A DNA stretch of 64,000 nucleotides, from IMG/VR virus record IMGVR_UViG_3300049173_000052, positions 509 through 64,508 of that record; one strand, written 5' to 3'. Position numbers and translations under genes: made by a program. Each line of letters starts with the position of its first letter. Position 1 is the stretch's first letter. This DNA is from a virus (lineage: Duplodnaviria > Caudoviricetes). Shown here piece after piece: positions 22,907 through 63,745 of the stretch. The notes under the pieces are model-generated. The model saw nothing but the letters and a program-made list of their open reading frames with translations. It was not told the origin of the DNA and did no database searches.

Positions 22907-23150
22907 GCGCTTTCGGACCGGGCGTGTGGGGCGCCTCGACTCAGGAGTAAAGCTGAGTTTCAGCCCTGGCGGAAGGTGTCTCATGCATATTCTTCGACTT
23001 TCCGTTCATTGCCGATCCGTTTCTGTAACCGCAGGTCAGGTGTTGGCCAAACGTTCCTGTGTTGATGCAGGTCACCGCCGTCAGGTGAGGCTCACCTGCG
23101 CCTGACCGGTGGCTGAAACCGCGCGTTTTGCTACCGGCCAGTTGCCCCGG

Positions 23151-26996: not shown

Positions 26997-28028
26997 TCAG
27001 AGGCCGATGTCCTCCGATGCTGCGTCGGTCCACTTGTCGGCTTCGCGGATGTACCCCCAGAAGGCGGGGCTGTTCTCGGCGTGCCCGGACTGTTCGCGGA
27101 TCTTCTCTTCTCGCTTGCCTGCGCGTCGAGAGGTGGTGATGAACCCGGCCCGCATCGAGTGGCCGGTGAGGCGGACGGAGAGCCCGGCGCGTTCGGCGTT
27201 GCGGGCGATGATTCCGCGGACGGCTTCGGGTGAGAGGGCGTGGTCGCCGAGGCGGCCGTGGACGGTGATGGGCAGGAAGGCGGGGCCTGAGCTGATGCCT
27301 GCGGCGGCGCGCCAGGTGAGCCATGCGCGGACGGGGCAGGTGTCGGGGTTCTTGCCTTCGTGGACGACGACGTCCCGGGGCGGCCTCCCCTTCACGGCGG
27401 GGACGTGAACTTCGAGTCCCTGGCTGACGTGGACGATGGTGTCGGCGCGGAGGGCGGCGACTTCGGCGGAGCGTCCGGCGATGGAGAAGGCGGTGAGCCA
27501 GAGGGCGCGGTCGCGGAGTCCGGTGAGTCCGTCGGCGACGGCGGCGTTCATCTGCCGGAGTTGTTCGGGGGTGACGGCGGCGGCCTTGCCTCTGCCGCGC
27601 GCCATGCGTTCGGGGTCGTGCTTGAGCGGCTTGAGGGCTTGCCGGGCGGCGACAGTGGCGGCTTTGGGGACCTCGATGCCGTGTTCGTTCCGGGCGGTGA
27701 CGGTGACGCCGGTGATGCGGCGATCGATGCTGTTGGGTGCGGCGAGTTTGATGGTGTCGAGCCAGACGACGAACCCGACGAGCGTGCCCTTGGTGACGTT
27801 GGTCGAGGCGATCCGGTGCCCGGTGCGCTCCCCCAGCCAGTCGTGGAACTCCTCCCAGAGTGCCCAGTCGTTGGCGTATCCGCGTTTGGTGTTGTGGGGG
27901 CGGATGGCGTCGAGGTGCTTCTCGGCTGCCTCTTCCATGGCGTGCAGGACGGCGAGCGTCGCAGCGTCGTAGACGGCAGGGGTGGCGTCCGGCTGGCGCG
28001 GGGCGAGGTCGCTGCTAGCTGACATCAT
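26997..28028 (-). CDS. Second tyrosine recombinase (Cre/Xer-like, resolvase-type)
   Basis: RDRAL...GRSAEV (R), K, GHSMRAG (HxxR), SGH, GY (Y); no arm-binding domain evident. Confidence 0.9.
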   Translation of the reverse strand: MMSASSDLAPRQPDATPAVYDAATLAVLHAMEEAAEKHLDAIRPHNTKRGYANDWALWEEFHDWLGERTGHRIASTNVTKGTLVGFVVWLDTIKLAAPNSIDRRITGVTVTARNEHGIEVPKAATVAARQALKPLKHDPERMARGRGKAAAVTPEQLRQMNAAVADGLTGLRDRALWLTAFSIAGRSAEVAALRADTIVHVSQGLEVHVPAVKGRPPRDVVVHEGKNPDTCPVRAWLTWRAAAGISSGPAFLPITVHGRLGDHALSPEAVRGIIARNAERAGLSVRLTGHSMRAGFITTSRRAGKREEKIREQSGHAENSPAFWGYIREADKWTDAASEDIGL

Positions 28029-51940: not shown

Positions 51941-52080
51941 GAGCCCCATCGTACAGGCTCCGCGTTACGGCTACAGGCTTCTGACCTGCACCGTAACCGT
52001 CCTGATACCGTCCAGCACAGGCCAGGTGGACTAGACCTGATGGACATACCCGCAGGTCAGCGGCCTTGGAAACCCGGGGG

Positions 52081-57260: not shown

Positions 57261-57503
57261 TCAGGCGGCCTTGGGTGCGCGCTGCGGCATGGGCCGGTAG
57301 GTCTTGGCGCGTTCCTTGATCTCGGGGAGGGCGTACATGGTCTTGTACTCGTGACCCTGGCCGGTAAGTTGCCCGTCGCCCTGGAAGCGGTGGATCTTCC
57401 CGCGCCGCGCCCACTGCCTGATGACCGGGCCGGGGACGCCGGTCGCTTCGGTCGCTTCGTGCTCGTAGACGAGGTCGTCGGGGTACAGCTCGGTCACGTC
57501 CAT
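57261..57503 (-). CDS. MerR-like HTH protein, possible late-gene regulator
   Basis: [21 protein letters not shown]...MYALPEI; first gene after a terminator. Confidence 0.7.
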
Positions 57504-57523: not shown

Positions 57524-57552
57524 AAAAGGCCCCCGGCAGTAGCTGGGGGCCT
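57524..57552 (-). terminator. Intrinsic terminator ending the transfer operon
   Basis: 11-bp stem, 4-nt loop, followed by TTTT on the minus strand. Confidence 0.75.
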
Positions 57553-57615: not shown

Positions 57616-57891
57616 TCAAGCGGCTGCCGGGATGCCCCAACTGCCGCCTCGGGTGGCCCGGAGCGCCTCTGACGCCTGCGTGTAGTCCATGAGCACCTCA
57701 CGGGCGAGCGAACCGCAGGCGGGCCCGACGATTCCGTGGCGGCCCATCATGTCGAGCAGGTGCTCACAGATCTCGAACGGCACGGACACGTTGTAGTCCC
57801 GCCGGAGGCGCCGACGGATCATGGACGGCGAGCCAAAGCGGGACTCGGTGACGAGCTTGGTGGCTGCGTAGAGCAGGTCGATGTGTGGCAT
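57616..57891 (-). CDS. Stand-alone FtsK gamma (winged-helix) domain protein
   Basis: DLLYAATKLVTESRFGSPSMIRRRLR...LLDMMGRHGIVGPACGSLAREVL matches the FtsK gamma pattern. Confidence 0.8.
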   Translation of the reverse strand: MPHIDLLYAATKLVTESRFGSPSMIRRRLRRDYNVSVPFEICEHLLDMMGRHGIVGPACGSLAREVLMDYTQASEALRATRGGSWGIPAAA

Positions 57892-58142
57892 CAGTGGACC
57901 TCCTGAGTTGTGAGGGTACGGACGTGTACGGGCATCGCCACTCCCCCGGCCTTCATCGCCCCTTCGAGCGCGGCCTGCGCTCCACTGTCCCGCCACGCCG
58001 CGGCGATATCGGCCCGGGCGAAGTGCAGCCGGAGCGTGCCGTCGTCGACGGTGGGGGTGGCGTGGGCGAGGAGCATGCCCGCCGCCTGACGACGGGTCGA
58101 CGTTGCTTCCAGCACCTGCGACCACCAGGCGGGGGCGGTCAT
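57891..58142 (-). CDS. Stand-alone domain resembling actinobacterial DnaX tau C-terminal region
   Basis: W..VLEA...RR....LL..A....DGTL.L.F.......SG....L; similarity recalled, not computed. Confidence 0.5.
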   Translation of the reverse strand: MTAPAWWSQVLEATSTRRQAAGMLLAHATPTVDDGTLRLHFARADIAAAWRDSGAQAALEGAMKAGGVAMPVHVRTLTTQEVH

Positions 58143-58351
58143 GCCGCCGCCTTCTCTCGGATGTCGGAGACGAGACCGCTCGCGTCGATATCCAGCTCGG
58201 TGCCGCAGTTGGGGCAGCTGTACTCGATGCCGCCGCCGACCTCCTTGGGGATCATGTCGTCGCCGCAGCAGATCGGGACGTCGTCGAGGTCGGTGTCGTC
58301 GGCTATGGATAGTTCGTAGCCGTAGCTGGTGGTGGGGCCGGTAGAGCACAT
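58139..58351 (-). CDS. Small zinc-ribbon protein
   Basis: PICCGDDM...CPNCG. Confidence 0.65.
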   Translation of the reverse strand: MCSTGPTTSYGYELSIADDTDLDDVPICCGDDMIPKEVGGGIEYSCPNCGTELDIDASGLVSDIREKAAA

Positions 58352-58360
58352 AGCGGTCTC

Positions 58361-58546
58361 CTAGTCGAGGTCGCGGGTGTCGTTGAAGATGTCGAGGTAC
58401 GAGGTGCCGTCGGCGGCAGTTAGACCGGCGAGGATGTCGAGGGCCGTCACTGCCGAGCCCCTGCTGTTGAGAAGGTCGTTGATCTCCTCGTCTGTGGCGG
58501 CGCGGCCTTCGGGGCTCTCGTCGTCGTGGATGGTCACGTCGGTCAT
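58361..58546 (-). CDS. Small acidic hypothetical protein
   Basis: 61 aa, GAGGAG RBS. Confidence 0.6.
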   Translation of the reverse strand: MTDVTIHDDESPEGRAATDEEINDLLNSRGSAVTALDILAGLTAADGTSYLDIFNDTRDLD

Positions 58547-58558
58547 ACAGTTCTCCTC

Positions 58559-59032
58559 CTACTGCTGGTTGTTGGTCTTGGCCCACACGCCGCGAGTGGT
58601 GGTCTGGACGTTGCGCTGGTCCTGGTAGACGGTGCCGGTGTAGGTCTGGTGGATCTCGGCGGGGACGGCTTCCTTCGCTCCGCGCAGGAGCCAGGCGAGG
58701 GCGAGGATGGGCACGGCGAGCGCGGCGGGGGCGGCGCAGATCATGCCGATGACGGTCGGATTGGCGTGCTCGGAAGCGACCACCACGGCGACCGCAATCA
58801 GGCCCGGGGGCACGGTGGCGAGGCTGCAGAACATGACGGCCCGGGCGGTCTCGGTCGTGCGCTGCGACATGGGCGGGATACCGGGCTGCGGGACGGGCGG
58901 GGCGTCTCCGTACCGCGGGAGCGGGGTCTGGTCGCGGTAGGAGGTGGCGAAGTCGGCGATGATCCGGCGCGCCTCAACGGCAGCCTCGGCGTCGGTCATT
59001 GCGGTGCGGGTCGGGTCGGTCTCGGCGGGCAT
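58559..59032 (-). CDS. Two-TM membrane protein (Spd-like by context)
   Basis: Pro-rich N-terminus, two TM helices, immediately after traB/clt. Confidence 0.7.
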   Translation of the reverse strand: MPAETDPTRTAMTDAEAAVEARRIIADFATSYRDQTPLPRYGDAPPVPQPGIPPMSQRTTETARAVMFCSLATVPPGLIAVAVVVASEHANPTVIGMICAAPAALAVPILALAWLLRGAKEAVPAEIHQTYTGTVYQDQRNVQTTTRGVWAKTNNQQ

Positions 59033-59080
59033 GGTGGGCTCCTGCGGGTGATCGTTTCGGGTGGCCTGGGGGCTGTTCGA

Positions 59081-59251
59081 CCCGTCCTGCCCCTCGTCCG
59101 AGGGTGCATTTGCGCTGGTCAGAGCTCGGCGAAGGCTCGTCGACGGGGGCTTTGAGCCCGTCCTGGCCGGACGGGGCTGCGGTGGCCAGGACGGGGGTTG
59201 GACTGGGTTCAAACTAGGTCAAAACAGGTCAGTGGACGGGGGTTGGACGGG
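59081..59251. repeat. clt-like locus with TRS-like GGACGGG(G) repeats
   Basis: GGACGGG at 59169, 59189, 59234, 59245; inverted at 59081 and 59157; variants at 59141 and 59200; 15-bp direct repeat GGACGGGGGTTGGAC at 59189 and 59234. Confidence 0.7.
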
Positions 59252-59253
59252 CC

Positions 59254-61356
59254 TCACAGGCCGATGTCGTACCGGTCCAGCACCGCGCGGCGGACCGCGG
59301 CGAGCGGGTAGACGGACACCTTGCTGCCGTTGACCTCCTGCCGCCGCTTCTCCTCATCGGTGCGCGGCACGAGCACGGCCAACCGGTCGGCGGTCACCGG
59401 GTGGCCGGCCGCAGCAAGCCCTTCGGTGACGCGGGCGGCGGGCAGCAGTTCCACGCCCTCCGGGTACAGGCCGAGCAGGGCGGCGAGGATCTCGCCGTCT
59501 TCCCCAGCGGCGCGCAGCCGGTCGAGCGGGCCGAGCGGCAGCGTCCCGGCTTCCTGCCGAAGCGTGTGGGCGCGGCCCATGATGGCGGCGACCTCGTCGT
59601 CGTCGTAGTAGTCGCCGCGGACCAGCTCTGGCTCGGCGCCTTCACCGTCCATGTAGATGCCCACGCCGCGCTGCGACTTGAGGATGTCCTGCGCGTTATG
59701 CCCGGCGGAGGCGTAGCCCTGACCGAGGATCGTGTCGGAGGCCTGCGGAGTGAGGCAGCGCATCGCCCAGCGGATGGACAGGATGTCGCGGATGCCGGTG
59801 GGCACGGAGTCGCTGTCGGGCTTCTGCGTGGCGGCGAGGCTGATGATGCCGAGCGCCCGGCCCTGCTGGACGATCAGCCGCAGCAGGCGCTCCATCTCCT
59901 GCCGGGTCTTCTGGTCGGCGGCGGCACCGTAGGACGACCATTCGTCGACGAGGAGCACGGCCAGGCAGACCCGCGGGTCGACGGCGGCCATCGCTTCGGT
60001 CAGCTTGCGGGAGCCGTGCTCCTTGGCCAGGGCGCGCCGTTCCTTGATCTCGACGTCCCACATGTACTGCAGGATGTCGAGGAGCTTGTCGGGGTCGCCG
60101 TCGGTGTCGAACATGGTGGCGATCGGCTCGAACGGGGTGATGTCGGCGCCGGCCTTGCCGTCGGCGAGGTACATGCGCACCGTGGGGTCGAGGGCGGCGG
60201 CGAGCAGCAGGTCGTTCGCCGCGGCTGACTTACCGGAGCCGGGCTCGCCGCCGAACAGTCCGGACCGCTCAACCCACGAGGTGACGACTTCCTCGCCGCG
60301 CAGGTTGACGCCCATCCGGATGGGCTGCCACAGGTTCACCTTCTCGGCGTCGAGCAGCGGGCCCCGGGTCGGCTTGGTGGAGAACGGCAGCTTCAGCGAC
60401 ACCCGCAGGTGGATGGTGTCCTCGCGGTCGCCGCGCGCCTGGTGGACCTGCTGCACGGACACGCCGAAGCCGTTGGCGATGCCCTCGCGCGCCCCGAGCG
60501 CCTTCTTGGCGGGGGTGCCGGACGGCAGCTGGAACACGACCTGCCAGGCCTTGCCGTCGGCGGTGAGCGTGCACGGGGTGCTGAGGCGCAGGGTGTCGTC
60601 GGCGGCGATGACGCGGGCGTCACGGTAGACGCGGTTGACCATGTCGTCGGTCATCCGGTCCCCGTCGCCGATCTTCGCGTCGCGGTCGGTGTACAGCTCG
60701 CCCGCGGTGGTGCGCCGGCCAATCAGAGCGAACGTGGCCAGGGTCGCCGCGGTGGCCGCGAGCCCGCCGGGGGCACCGAGCAGGTGCAGCCCGGCCCCCT
60801 CAACGCCGGCGATCGGAGCCAGGGCCGCCATGCCGCGCACGGCCCGCCGCATGCGGGCATCCCGCTGCGCCGACCGGTACTTGCTCATCGCGGAGGCGGA
60901 GTCGGCGAACGCGCCTTCCATCTCCCGGCGGCGCTTCTCCTTCTCCTTGCCGGGCATGAGCCGCCGGTCGTGCGCCCACTTCGCGGCCTTGTAGTCGCGC
61001 TGCGTCTGCTGCAGCTCGTGCCGGGCGGCAGTCACCTGAGCGCCCTCGGTGCCCTGCACCCACAGGGCGGTGCGCCAGATGCCGCGACCGATCTGGGAGG
61101 CGTGCCCGTGCTCGGTGGCCTGCCGGCGCAGCCACTTGCGGAAGCCACGCATCGTGTTGACGCGGCCCACCGCAGCCCGGCTCTTCCAGCCGCCGCGGGT
61201 CTTCGTCCAGGCGGGGGTGAGGGGGGTGTCGCCCATCAGGTCGACGGACGTCGTCTGCTTCTCGACGGGCGCCTCACCGGGGGCGTTCAGGTACCCGCCG
61301 ACGATGCGCTCCCACTCCGGGTCGGGGGTGCTGCTGGGGGTCGTCTCGATGCTCAT
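59254..61356 (-). CDS. traB: FtsK/SpoIIIE-family DNA translocase, TraB/TraSA-like
   Basis: TM segment, Walker A GGEPGSGKS, DGK, Walker B LLVDEWSS, ATQKP; Spd-like neighbours. Confidence 0.88.
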   Translation of the reverse strand: MSIETTPSSTPDPEWERIVGGYLNAPGEAPVEKQTTSVDLMGDTPLTPAWTKTRGGWKSRAAVGRVNTMRGFRKWLRRQATEHGHASQIGRGIWRTALWVQGTEGAQVTAARHELQQTQRDYKAAKWAHDRRLMPGKEKEKRRREMEGAFADSASAMSKYRSAQRDARMRRAVRGMAALAPIAGVEGAGLHLLGAPGGLAATAATLATFALIGRRTTAGELYTDRDAKIGDGDRMTDDMVNRVYRDARVIAADDTLRLSTPCTLTADGKAWQVVFQLPSGTPAKKALGAREGIANGFGVSVQQVHQARGDREDTIHLRVSLKLPFSTKPTRGPLLDAEKVNLWQPIRMGVNLRGEEVVTSWVERSGLFGGEPGSGKSAAANDLLLAAALDPTVRMYLADGKAGADITPFEPIATMFDTDGDPDKLLDILQYMWDVEIKERRALAKEHGSRKLTEAMAAVDPRVCLAVLLVDEWSSYGAAADQKTRQEMERLLRLIVQQGRALGIISLAATQKPDSDSVPTGIRDILSIRWAMRCLTPQASDTILGQGYASAGHNAQDILKSQRGVGIYMDGEGAEPELVRGDYYDDDEVAAIMGRAHTLRQEAGTLPLGPLDRLRAAGEDGEILAALLGLYPEGVELLPAARVTEGLAAAGHPVTADRLAVLVPRTDEEKRRQEVNGSKVSVYPLAAVRRAVLDRYDIGL

Positions 61357-61365
61357 GACGGGTCC

Positions 61366-62511
61366 TTAGTGGTGGTGGCCGTTGACGGCAGGAATCCGGC
61401 GGGGAGAGCCGCCGCGCTCGAGGGCGGCCTCGTTCTTCGCGATGAGGTGGAACGGCACCGAGTCACCCTTGGTGCGGCGGTGCGGCGGAGGCGCCTTACG
61501 GCCACCCTTCTGAGCCGCCTTCTGGGGCACCTTGGGAGCGGGGGGTAGATCGGACGCGACCTGCGAAGATCCAGGCTCCGAGAGGCGCCCTACAGGGGCC
61601 GGGTGGAGCAGTTCCAGCAGACGCCCGCGAGTGCTCACCGGGGAGCCGTTCACCGCATCCATGGCGTCGGCGAGAGCCTTGCTGGAAGCGAGCTGCTCGG
61701 CGTGCAGAGCCGGGGTCATGCCGGGGGTCCGCGTGCCGTACTTGATCTCCCAGGCGGAAGCGAACGCCTCCTCGAACGAGAGGGTGCCGTAGGGGGCTGC
61801 GGACACCAGCGTCTTGGCGAGGGTGACGACGGCCTTGTGGTCCTTGCGGCGCCGCCGCTCGTGCTTCTCGCGGGCCTTCGTCTCGGAACGCCGCTTCCGC
61901 TCCCCCGCGTCGAACGACAGCGTCATCACCCACTGGCGAACCTCGAAGAACAGCGGACCGAGCAGGGTCACCGCGGCGAGACCAAAGCCGACCGCCGGAG
62001 CGATGTGCCGGCCGTAGTCGTAGTTGATCCACGCCGCGAAGCTGGCGGCGCTCATAGCCAGGGCTCGCAGAAGCCAGCGCACCCAGCCGGGCAGCTTTCG
62101 CTCGTCGGCATAGGCGACGCCCGCGTTCATCACCCAGGCGGCGCCTTCAAGGGCGAACGGCAGGGGCAGCAGCATCAGCGAGATGGTGGCGAAGTGCATG
62201 ATCTGCGCGGGCAGGGACGCCAGCGCAGACGCGGTGACGAGTGCGAGGGTGCCGCGCCGGTAGACGATGCCAGGGGTGGTGTTCTTCGCCCAGGCCTGGG
62301 CGCGTTCGCGACGGCGTTCGCGCTTGTCGCGGCGCTTCTGCTGCTTCTCGGCGCGGGCCTCGGCCTTGTCGGCCTGCCGGTTGGTGCGGCGCCGCTCATC
62401 TTCGGCAGCCCGCATCTTCAGGACGCGTTCGGCGGCGGCGGCCTGGTCCAGGCGGCGCTGCTCAGCCTCGGCCGCCTGGTTCCGTCGGCGCTCGTCGCTC
62501 CAGCTGCTCAC
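61366..62511 (-). CDS. SpdB-like (DUF2637-like) membrane protein with coiled coils
   Basis: Charged coiled-coil N-terminus, about four TM helices, immediately upstream of traB. Confidence 0.72.
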   Translation of the reverse strand: MSSWSDERRRNQAAEAEQRRLDQAAAAERVLKMRAAEDERRRTNRQADKAEARAEKQQKRRDKRERRRERAQAWAKNTTPGIVYRRGTLALVTASALASLPAQIMHFATISLMLLPLPFALEGAAWVMNAGVAYADERKLPGWVRWLLRALAMSAASFAAWINYDYGRHIAPAVGFGLAAVTLLGPLFFEVRQWVMTLSFDAGERKRRSETKAREKHERRRRKDHKAVVTLAKTLVSAAPYGTLSFEEAFASAWEIKYGTRTPGMTPALHAEQLASSKALADAMDAVNGSPVSTRGRLLELLHPAPVGRLSEPGSSQVASDLPPAPKVPQKAAQKGGRKAPPPHRRTKGDSVPFHLIAKNEAALERGGSPRRIPAVNGHHH

Positions 62512-63482: not shown

Positions 63483-63616
63483 GGGGATTCCTCTCGGTCA
63501 GTGAATGGGTGGTGGTGCGCGCCCCGGGCCCGAGTCGATCGGGCACCGTCGCGGCTGGTCCGGGGCTGGATGCCGGGCGGGGCAGGGGGATGGACCCCGC
63601 CCGGCGGATCAGGGGG

Positions 63617-63745
63617 TCAGCCGTCCAGTCCGGGCAGCAGGTCGGCTTCCTGGCACGGATCCGGCGCGGCCGGGTCGTAGCCGCACGCACATACGGCGGT
63701 CGGGTCGGCCGGGGTGCCGCAGTCCGGACACGGGCGGGGCGGCAT
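63617..63745 (-). CDS. 42-aa Cys-rich peptide
   Basis: CPDC...CAC; TGATG coupling. Confidence 0.45.
   Translation of the reverse strand: MPPRPCPDCGTPADPTAVCACGYDPAAPDPCQEADLLPGLDG

What the first reader, a model, noticed from the sequence alone, without database searches (positions are those of the whole stretch)
57616..57891. Free-standing FtsK gamma domain gene
Seen: a 91-aa ORF matching the FtsK gamma winged-helix pattern (GS.SMIRRRLR...LLD.M...GIVGP..GS..REVL), with no motor domain, at the end of the traB operon. Established: gamma reads KOPS and directs FtsK and activates XerD. TraB normally has its own C-terminal recognition domain. Inference: it could be a decoy that occupies KOPS-like sites or blocks host FtsK/Xer during septation, or a trans-acting specificity or orientation subunit for the phage translocase or the second tyrosine recombinase.
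Basis: partly seen in the sequence, partly recalled or inferred. Interest (0 to 1): 0.72.

Follow-up and report, generated by a model that had tools for sequence, protein, structure and literature searches.

The report
Stand-alone FtsK gamma gene in phage
A Streptomyces phage carries a real 91-residue gene that is just the DNA-reading "gamma" winged-helix of the chromosome pump FtsK, with no motor attached; it belongs to a small phage family that is always motor-less, it is an optional gene, and its role is still unknown.

Summary
Window 57616-57891 (-) encodes a 91-aa protein that passes Pfam FtsK_gamma (38.1 bits; cut-off 30.6). Its AlphaFold model matches solved FtsK gamma domains best (TM 0.72-0.85). 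It is under purifying selection (dN/dS 0.15). It is the last, translationally coupled cistron of an operon with an FtsK/TcpA-like ATPase.

New findings:
- It belongs to a gamma subfamily with a 6-residue insertion in the helix-turn-helix turn. 30 of the 31 such proteins found (one 300-aa exception) are 72-147 aa and free-standing.
- In six phage or prophage contexts it ends the same membrane-protein/ATPase operon. The ATPase type differs between them (gamma 86% identical, ATPase 8-21%).
- Sister prophages with a 67-74% identical ATPase have no gamma gene, so it is accessory, not a core subunit.
- The base-reading arginine of the recognition helix is lost, so a KOPS decoy is unlikely.
- No XerD was found in 13 Streptomyces genomes, so host Xer is an unlikely target.

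Best guess (0.4): a short-lived, trans-acting DNA-binding accessory of the phage DNA-transfer module, with its own DNA specificity.

Single gamma ORFs in phages are already noted in the literature as being of unknown role (PMC8190038). I rate this a new variant of a known kind, of moderate interest.

The parts
57616..57891 (-). Free-standing FtsK gamma-type winged-helix gene, 91 aa, stop codon included
57899..57904 (-). AGGAGG ribosome-binding site, 7 nt upstream of the ATG
   Evidence: Read directly from the sequence. This stretch is also conserved at the nucleotide level with L003.
57891..58142 (-). Upstream 83-aa ORF whose stop overlaps the gamma start (TGATG). Poorly conserved, no family match.
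57524..57551 (-). GC-rich hairpin followed by UUUU: terminator-like end of the operon
   Evidence: Sequence and fold. The strict consensus scan did not flag it because it has only 4 U.
57261..57503 (-). 80-aa MerR/excisionase-like HTH gene, the first gene after the hairpin. It is part of the conserved backbone and is also present in the gamma-less relative L070.
58139..58546 (-). Two small accessory ORFs (70-aa zinc-ribbon-like, 61 aa) in the same variable island as gamma
58559..59212 (-). Membrane protein of phrog_19266. The start is uncertain: the family match begins at residue 54.
   Evidence: E 3.2e-42.
59040..59260 (-). Repeat-rich region downstream of the ATPase gene, with six CCCGTCC/GGACGGG units and a conserved CTCTGACCAGCG arm (clt-like)
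59254..61356 (-). 700-aa FtsK/TcpA-like dsDNA-motor ATPase with a separate, confidently folded C-terminal helix-strand domain (residues about 610-696)
61366..62511 (-). 381-aa membrane protein immediately preceding the ATPase gene. This pairing is conserved in all related loci.

Best explanation
The gene encodes a small gamma-type winged-helix DNA-binding protein. It belongs to an actinophage subfamily that (one 300-aa exception aside) is free-standing and carries a 6-residue insertion between helix 2 and the recognition helix. Its closest full-length relatives are actinobacterial FtsK gamma domains.

In this phage lineage it is an optional cargo gene, kept as the last, translationally coupled cistron of the early operon that encodes a membrane protein and an FtsK/TcpA-like dsDNA motor.

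The most likely role is that it binds DNA with a specificity of its own, not the host FtsK motif. It would act in trans as a modulator or 'reader' for DNA handling by that transfer module, doing in trans what gamma does in cis for FtsK. It is not a core subunit of the module.

The conserved C-terminal tail (GGSWGxPxAA, disordered in the model) suggests regulated turnover or partner docking.

Shown: domain identity, fold, selection, synteny, accessory status and divergence of the recognition helix. Inferred: DNA binding, the target and the link to the motor.
For: - Identity: Pfam FtsK_gamma above cut-off; best fold matches are solved gamma domains.
- Origin: 41-44% identity to Streptomyces chromosomal FtsK gamma, including the extra fourth helix.
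- Backbone-contacting positions are kept and conserved in the family: R27 (E. coli R1289), R30 (R1292), the wing R64, and the Ser/Gly at the start of helix 2 (numbering from PMC5052618).
- Selection: dN/dS 0.15.
- Synteny: the gene sits last in the operon, 2-4 kb downstream of a roughly 700-aa FtsK-like ATPase, in window, L003, L004, L035, L065 and L066, at 54-86% gamma identity. This holds even though the ATPase has been swapped between at least three types.
- Fusion precedents: gamma is fused to dsDNA motors or their DNA-recognition partners elsewhere. Examples are FtsK itself, 806-821-aa FtsK/HerA-like ATPases on Streptomyces linear plasmids (43-44% identical gamma), the small terminase of Bacillus phages Sam46/Sam112 (PMC8190038) and PIF1 helicases.
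- Subfamily: 30 of the 31 insertion-bearing relatives are 72-147 aa.
Against: - Gamma identity does not track ATPase identity: window versus L003 is 86% against 8-21%, and L004 versus L035 is 77% against 23%.
- The window-type ATPase has at least 199 homologue clusters and none is fused to gamma.
- Prophages with a 74% or 67% identical ATPase of the same length have no gamma in any frame.
- One Streptomyces genome (G060) has the ATPase but no gamma orthologue.
- The ATPase model has its own folded C-terminal domain.
- More distant subfamily members sit in replication or methylase regions with no motor gene within the 7-8 kb seen.
- The recognition helix is net acidic (E40, E43, D47), so strong DNA binding is not assured.
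Confidence: 0.4

Rival explanations
1. It is an independent early-gene DNA-binding regulator, such as a transcription factor or nucleoid-type protein. It would have evolved from a captured gamma domain and be unrelated in function to the ATPase. Its position at the end of the early operon, just before the late genes, would reflect a hot spot for small accessory genes.
For: - Distant members of the same insertion subfamily lie next to DnaB/HNH replication genes, or among methylase, HIT and Ku genes, with no FtsK-like ATPase in the 7-8 kb seen.
- A phage-plasmid-like Streptomyces plasmid has a similar copy beside WYL, ERF and WhiB genes.
- Gamma lies in a variable island of small ORFs that differs between sister phages.
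- 14 of 31 subfamily members end in Ala-Ala and 24 of 31 end in Ala. From my own knowledge, a C-terminal AA is a ClpP-dependent degron in the Streptomyces regulators PopR and ClgR.
Against: - In six of six fully seen contexts of the close clade, the gene stays with the membrane-protein/ATPase operon despite heavy mosaicism.
- No operator-like site could be tied to it.
Confidence: 0.3
2. It is a trans-acting activator of a tyrosine recombinase. The target would be the phage's own 343-aa Cre/Xer-like enzyme at 26997-28028, or the integrase. This would mimic the way FtsK gamma switches on XerD and give the phage motor-independent resolution or excision.
For: - Isolated gamma alone activates XerCD-dif in vivo and in vitro (PMC3130261).
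- A 9-residue gamma peptide, RQFRIGYNR, is enough for activation, and R1289 is the key residue (PMC5052618).
- The phage protein has RRLRRDYNV at the aligned positions. R27 is invariant and R30 is nearly invariant in the family.
- The 13 Streptomyces genomes sampled from the likely host genus have no XerD, so a circular phage replicon would need its own system.
- The window has a second tyrosine recombinase.
Against: - The 6-residue insertion sits exactly in the turn that contacts XerD.
- The same arginines also contact DNA, so their conservation is not specific to this role (PMC5052618).
- The recombinase gene is about 30 kb away. It scores only 32 bits to XerC and has no PDB sequence relative.
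- No co-occurrence could be shown.
Confidence: 0.1
3. It is a decoy or inhibitor of host FtsK. It would occupy the host's FtsK-orienting sequences, or titrate an FtsK gamma partner, and so disturb chromosome clearance at septa during infection.
For: - Its nearest full-length relatives are Streptomyces FtsK gamma domains.
- It is more conserved than its neighbours (86% against 56-69% for the fibre genes and 8-21% for the ATPase). This would fit a conserved host target.
Against: - The positions that read bases in FtsK are changed. The Arg that aligns with E. coli R1300, and that Streptomyces FtsK keeps, is H, L, N or R in the family. The Lys that precedes it is Ile. The turn also carries a 6-aa insertion.
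- No XerD partner was found in the 13 Streptomyces genomes sampled.
Confidence: 0.08

Closest known systems
Gamma domain of FtsK/SpoIIIE (PDB 2j5p, 2ve8, 2ve9; Pfam PF09397)
   Same: Same fold and the same family by HMM and by structure. It keeps the helix-2 arginines, the wing Arg and the GIVGP turn. It is 41-44% identical to Streptomyces FtsK gamma.
   Different: It is not attached to a motor. It has a 6-residue insertion between helix 2 and helix 3. The base-reading Arg of helix 3 is replaced. It has a conserved extra tail, GGSWGxPxAA.
Single FtsK_gamma-like ORFs in phages, and the gamma-TerS fusion of Bacillus phages Sam46/Sam112 (PMC8190038)
   Same: A phage-encoded gamma without an FtsK motor. 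That paper states that such separate ORFs occur in some phages and that their role is unknown. The ESM Atlas also holds 83-90-aa, mostly viral gamma clusters.
   Different: Here the gene belongs to an actinophage-specific insertion subfamily. It is tied to an FtsK/TcpA-like ATPase operon, not to the terminase. The Sam46 gamma keeps the host-like DNA-contact residues.
phrog_6152 proteins of Gordonia and Mycobacterium phages (e.g. Gordonia phage Kiko gp52, 345 aa, annotated 'FtsK-like DNA translocase')
   Same: An actinophage early-region protein with a gamma domain, 35-44% identical.
   Different: In those proteins gamma is the C-terminal domain of a 345-aa protein with an unassigned N-terminal part, and it lacks the 6-aa insertion.
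FtsK/HerA-like ATPases with a fused C-terminal gamma on Streptomyces linear plasmids (e.g. WP_331751435.1, 806 aa)
   Same: A mobile-element dsDNA-motor module in the same host genus, with a gamma 43-44% identical.
   Different: Gamma is fused to the ATPase there. The plasmid ATPase is only remotely related to the phage ATPase.
TraB C-terminal winged helix with clt/TRS repeats of Streptomyces conjugative plasmids, and the accessory DNA-binding protein SpdA2 of pIJ101 (PMC4170104)
   Same: An FtsK-like motor followed by a repeat-rich locus. SpdA2 is a small DNA-binding protein of a tra/spd region that is dispensable for transfer.
   Different: The phage ATPase fails the NCBIfam plasmid_TraB model (21 bits against a cut-off of 800). 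Gamma is unrelated in sequence to SpdA.
XafT, the Xer activation factor of the satellite phage TLC-phi (PMC9226527)
   Same: A phage-encoded small protein that replaces FtsK gamma in activating XerD. It is a functional analogue for the recombinase-activator rival.
   Different: It belongs to a different protein family. Its host has XerCD, whereas the Streptomyces genomes sampled here do not.

Membership tests
FtsK_gamma (PF09397) | Matches the family HMM above the curated gathering score | tested here: met
   38.1 bits against a 30.6-bit cut-off, profile positions 5-62 of 63. The whole-record search gave 36.5 bits.
FtsK_gamma (PF09397) | Three-helix winged-helix fold like the solved gamma domains | tested here: met
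   The model has pLDDT 82.8. The eight best Foldseek PDB hits, and nine of the first ten, are FtsK gamma chains, with TM by target 0.72-0.85.
FtsK_gamma (PF09397) | C-terminal domain of an FtsK/SpoIIIE alpha-beta motor | tested here: not met
   It is a 91-aa stand-alone ORF. All 15 orthologue clusters are 86-139 aa. 30 of the 31 insertion-subfamily members are 72-147 aa.
FtsK_gamma (PF09397) | Base-reading residues of the recognition helix (E. coli N1296, R1300, E1303; this residue list is from my own knowledge of Sivanathan 2006 and Lowe 2008) | tested here: not met
   By alignment, R1300 corresponds to H44 (H, L, R or N in the family). The position of N1296 is disrupted by the insertion and is variable. 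E1303 corresponds to D47.
FtsK_gamma (PF09397) | XerD-activating surface (R1289, R1292, peptide RQFRIGYNR; PMC5052618) | tested here: inconclusive
   R27 and R30 are conserved and the aligned peptide is RRLRRDYNV. However, the insertion follows directly, the same residues also contact DNA, and no XerD was found in 13 Streptomyces genomes.
FtsK_gamma (PF09397) | Sequence-specific binding to an 8-bp polar DNA motif | not testable with these tools
   This needs EMSA, SELEX or ChIP. One candidate motif was examined and dropped.
Streptomyces TraB/clt conjugative transfer system (context of the gene) | FtsK-like hexameric motor ATPase | tested here: met
   Pfam FtsK_SpoIIIE 35.4 bits. The model's best PDB folds are the TcpA coupling protein and the FtsK motor, E about 1e-12 to 1e-13.
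Streptomyces TraB/clt conjugative transfer system (context of the gene) | Membership of the plasmid TraB equivalog | tested here: not met
   NF041214 plasmid_TraB scores 21.3 bits against a cut-off of 800.
Streptomyces TraB/clt conjugative transfer system (context of the gene) | Repeat-rich cis locus next to the ATPase gene | tested here: met
   Each of six loci has its own 7-8-bp repeat in direct and inverted copies downstream of the ATPase gene. Function was not tested.
Streptomyces TraB/clt conjugative transfer system (context of the gene) | The ATPase has its own C-terminal winged-helix DNA-recognition domain | tested here: inconclusive
   Residues 610-696 are confidently folded (pLDDT 80-92) as helices with a three-strand hairpin. 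The domain was not searched on its own, and it shows no profile similarity to gamma.

The most novel reading that the evidence does not exclude
The insertion-bearing, always free-standing gamma proteins of actinophages would be trans-acting switches for DNA transactions that do not use host FtsK. In one form, gamma licenses or orients a phage-encoded FtsK-like pump that moves phage DNA between hyphal compartments. In the other, it activates a phage tyrosine recombinase in a host genus in which no XerD was found in the genomes sampled. Either way, the phage would have split the 'reader/activator' part of FtsK from the motor and would use it as a diffusible, unstable regulator.
Probability: 0.12. 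Interest if true: 0.8.

Novelty: new variant of a known kind. Interest (0 to 1): 0.42.

Why it matters
FtsK gamma is the textbook example of a domain that reads DNA polarity for a motor and switches on a recombinase. Isolated gamma is known to work in trans in the test tube and when expressed artificially. Phages seem to have made that experiment naturally.

Separate gamma ORFs in phages have been noted, but no function has been assigned. This report defines a distinct subfamily that is always motor-less. It also shows that the gene is optional cargo that travels with a conjugation-like DNA-transfer operon in Streptomyces phages. That gives a concrete system, with natural gamma-plus and gamma-minus sister phages, in which the function can be tested.

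If the gene proves to guide a phage DNA pump or a recombinase, it would bear on how temperate phages spread or resolve their genomes in mycelial, linear-chromosome hosts. If it is only a small regulator, the finding is ordinary.

Tried and rejected
1. Complex prediction of gamma with ATPase residues 225-700, both given as alignments. After seven 'machine busy' refusals the job ran and returned no verdict. It is not used as evidence either way.

2. Idea: gamma binds the conserved CCGCAGGTCAGA / TCTGACCTGCGG inverted pair found in the repeat-rich region after the ATPase gene in all six loci. I dropped this because the same motif is present in the gamma-less relatives L069 and L070. The exact 8-mer is only mildly enriched in the window (6 found against 2.6 expected).

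3. Profile comparison of the gamma family with the ATPase C-terminus: no similarity.

4. tblastn of the ATPase against 50,697 phage records: no match at 1e-10, although phrog_1358 matches at 1e-116.

5. The upstream 83-aa ORF as a conserved partner: it is only 20-39% identical to the ORFs at that position in other loci, and it has no family hit.

6. NCBIfam and PADLOC give nothing for gamma.

7. A PDB sequence search with the 343-aa recombinase gave no hit, so the XerD residues that contact gamma could not be compared.

8. The whole-record search of the contigs behind L008 and L004 was not possible because those records are not held.

9. L011: the ORF that runs off the contig upstream of gamma has a YIKGP motif like the ATPases but no BLAST-level similarity to them. 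I therefore count it as a truncated context, not a confirmed one.

10. RNA evidence (sequencing runs) was not sought.

Full report
**What is there.**
- The window is 64,000 of the 64,508 bases of one IMG/VR virus record, judged 100% complete by CheckV.
- On the minus strand, 57616-57891 is an ATG-to-TGA ORF of 91 aa.
- It has an AGGAGG site 7 nt upstream. Its ATG shares one base with the stop of an 83-aa ORF (TGATG), so it is translationally coupled.
- It is followed by a GC-rich hairpin plus UUUU (57524-57551). After that come an 80-aa MerR/excisionase-like gene and the collagen/deacetylase fibre genes.
- Upstream in the same operon lie a 381-aa membrane protein, a 700-aa FtsK-like ATPase, a phrog_19266 membrane protein and small ORFs.

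**Is it a gamma domain?** Yes.
- Pfam FtsK_gamma scores 38.1 bits against a cut-off of 30.6, over nearly the whole profile.
- An AlphaFold2 model built on 16 family members (pLDDT 82.8) shows helices 6-17, 22-33 and 39-51, a wing, and a fourth helix at 70-80. The last 8 residues are disordered.
- Its best PDB matches are the E. coli and P. aeruginosa FtsK gamma domains (TM by target 0.72-0.85).
- The record contains no other gamma domain.
- Against the 86%-identical orthologue in a Streptomyces chromosome, dS is 0.61, dN is 0.09 and dN/dS is 0.15. This is a selected coding gene.

**Where it comes from and how it differs.**
- A profile of the family hits the chromosomal FtsK gamma of all 301 Streptomyces species genomes sampled, at about 65 bits. 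The tally includes one unpublished genome, G131, and does not depend on it.
- Pairwise identity to Streptomyces FtsK gamma is 41-44% and extends through the fourth helix.
- Two differences stand out. The first is a 6-residue insertion between helix 2 and helix 3. The second is replacement of helix-3 residues: the Arg that aligns with E. coli R1300, kept in Streptomyces FtsK, is H44 here (H, L, R or N in the family), and the preceding Lys is Ile.
- By contrast, R27 and R30 (E. coli R1289 and R1292) and the wing R64 are conserved.
- In E. coli, R1289 and R1292 contact both DNA and XerD, and the peptide RQFRIGYNR suffices to stimulate XerCD (PMC5052618). The phage peptide at those positions is RRLRRDYNV.

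**A distinct, always free-standing subfamily.**
- An exhaustive HMMER search of 1.84 billion representatives found 291 relatives.
- I placed the best 150 representatives together with the 15 orthologues on the family profile. 31 proteins besides the query fill the insertion columns (consensus roughly Q-x-H-G-[IV]-x-[IV]-T-F).
- All but one of these are 72-147 aa. The 132 proteins without the insertion range from 70 to 1040 aa.
- The close orthologue group is small: 15 clusters among 5.8 billion proteins, one of 301 Streptomyces species genomes and one further IMG/VR contig.

**Context.**
- In window, L003, L004 (with L005 and L006), L035, L065 and L066, the gene is the last of an operon. The operon contains a 381-449-aa membrane protein immediately followed by a 665-702-aa FtsK-like ATPase, then a few small genes.
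- The modules are mosaic. Gamma is 86% identical between window and L003, while the ATPases share only 8% (local) to 21% (MAFFT) identity. Gamma and the membrane protein are each 77% identical between L004 and L035, while those ATPases share 23%.
- The window-type ATPase is common, with at least 199 clusters, and is never fused to gamma.
- Prophages L069 and L070, with 74% and 67% identical ATPases and the same backbone down to the MerR-like gene, the fibre and the terminase, have no gamma in any frame.
- Genome G060 has the ATPase but only its chromosomal FtsK gamma.
- Gamma is therefore accessory cargo in a variable island at the end of this operon.
- More distant insertion-type members lie beside DnaB and HNH genes, or among methylase, HIT and Ku genes, or just upstream of an HTH_17 gene as here.

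**The ATPase.** Its model folds like the TcpA coupling protein and the FtsK motor. It has a separate, confident C-terminal helix-strand domain. It fails the plasmid TraB equivalog. So 'TraB' is an analogy, not a membership.

**The repeat locus.**
- Downstream of every ATPase gene is a 140-220-bp stretch with a locus-specific 7-8-bp repeat in direct and inverted copies. Examples are CCCGTCC here, GTCGTGAC in L004 and TGCTCGC in L035.
- The same stretches also carry a conserved CCGCAGGTCAGA / TCTGACCTGCGG pair.
- I tested whether the conserved pair could be the gamma site. It is also present in gamma-less L069 and L070, so it is not tied to gamma.

**Host Xer.** TIGR02225 (XerD) finds nothing above its cut-off in 13 Streptomyces genomes, and 7 of the 13 have no hit at 1e-20. 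Host XerD is therefore an unlikely partner. The phage's 343-aa recombinase is only remotely Xer-like.

**Known precedents.**
- PMC8190038 reports a gamma domain fused to the small terminase of Bacillus phages. [quoted passage not shown]
- The ESM Atlas holds mostly viral clusters of 83-90-aa gamma proteins, and gamma fused to PIF1 helicases.
- Gordonia and Mycobacterium phages carry 345-aa proteins ending in gamma.
- Streptomyces linear plasmids carry 806-821-aa ATPase-gamma fusions.
- Isolated gamma activates XerCD-dif experimentally (PMC3130261).

**Verdict.**
- The most likely role (0.4) is an optional, trans-acting, probably short-lived DNA-binding accessory of the phage DNA-transfer module, with a specificity different from host FtsK.
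- An independent early regulator is nearly as likely (0.3).
- A recombinase activator (0.1) and an FtsK decoy (0.08) are less likely.
- This is a new variant of a known kind. Its interest is moderate, mainly because natural gamma-plus and gamma-minus sister phages make the question testable.

Noticed in passing
window 59040-59260; L003 6176-6400; L004 5606-5806; L035 7976-8195; L065 4206-4370; L066 6211-6360: Every region after the ATPase gene carries its own 7-8-bp repeat, in direct copies on the left and inverted copies on the right, around a conserved CCGCAGGTCAGA ... TCTGACCTGCGG pair. The variable repeats change with the ATPase, as TRS repeats do with TraB. The conserved pair does not change, and it is also present in the gamma-less relatives.
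   Followed up: partly
window 51981-52060 and 23030-23100: Two further intergenic clusters hold inverted CTGACCTGCG / GCAGGTCA copies 50-70 bp apart. The cluster at 52 kb also contains GGACGG units like the repeat locus after the ATPase gene.
   Followed up: partly
window 63561-63623; L003 1309-1360 and 1740-1797; L035 2566-2680: A conserved element follows the stop codons of small ORFs: ACCCCCTGATCC, then a 10-bp stem CCGGGCGGGG, a 12-nt loop, and CCCCGCCCGG. It occurs twice in L003. It may be a terminator or an RNA or protein-binding element.
   Followed up: partly
window 59254-61356 compared with L003, L004, L035, L065, L066: The ATPase gene has been exchanged between at least three very divergent FtsK-like types (8-28% identity), while the flanking membrane-protein and gamma genes stay related. 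This is cassette-like swapping of the motor.
   Followed up: partly
P0262, a homologue of the window ATPase (1063 aa): One ATPase homologue is about 360 aa longer and carries a LAGLIDADG homing-endonuclease domain. It is probably an intein inside the motor gene.
   Followed up: no
P0030, P0031, P0034, P0037 (relatives): These are motor-less proteins made of two or three tandem gamma domains (for example 234 aa with three). They recall the gamma trimer that binds one KOPS site.
   Followed up: no
13 Streptomyces genomes (G001-G013): No XerD above the family cut-off was found in any genome, and 7 of the 13 have no hit at 1e-20. Yet chromosomal FtsK keeps a nearly invariant gamma domain across the 301 Streptomyces genomes sampled.
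   Followed up: partly
PF00589 was not found on it in the whole-record search.
   Followed up: no
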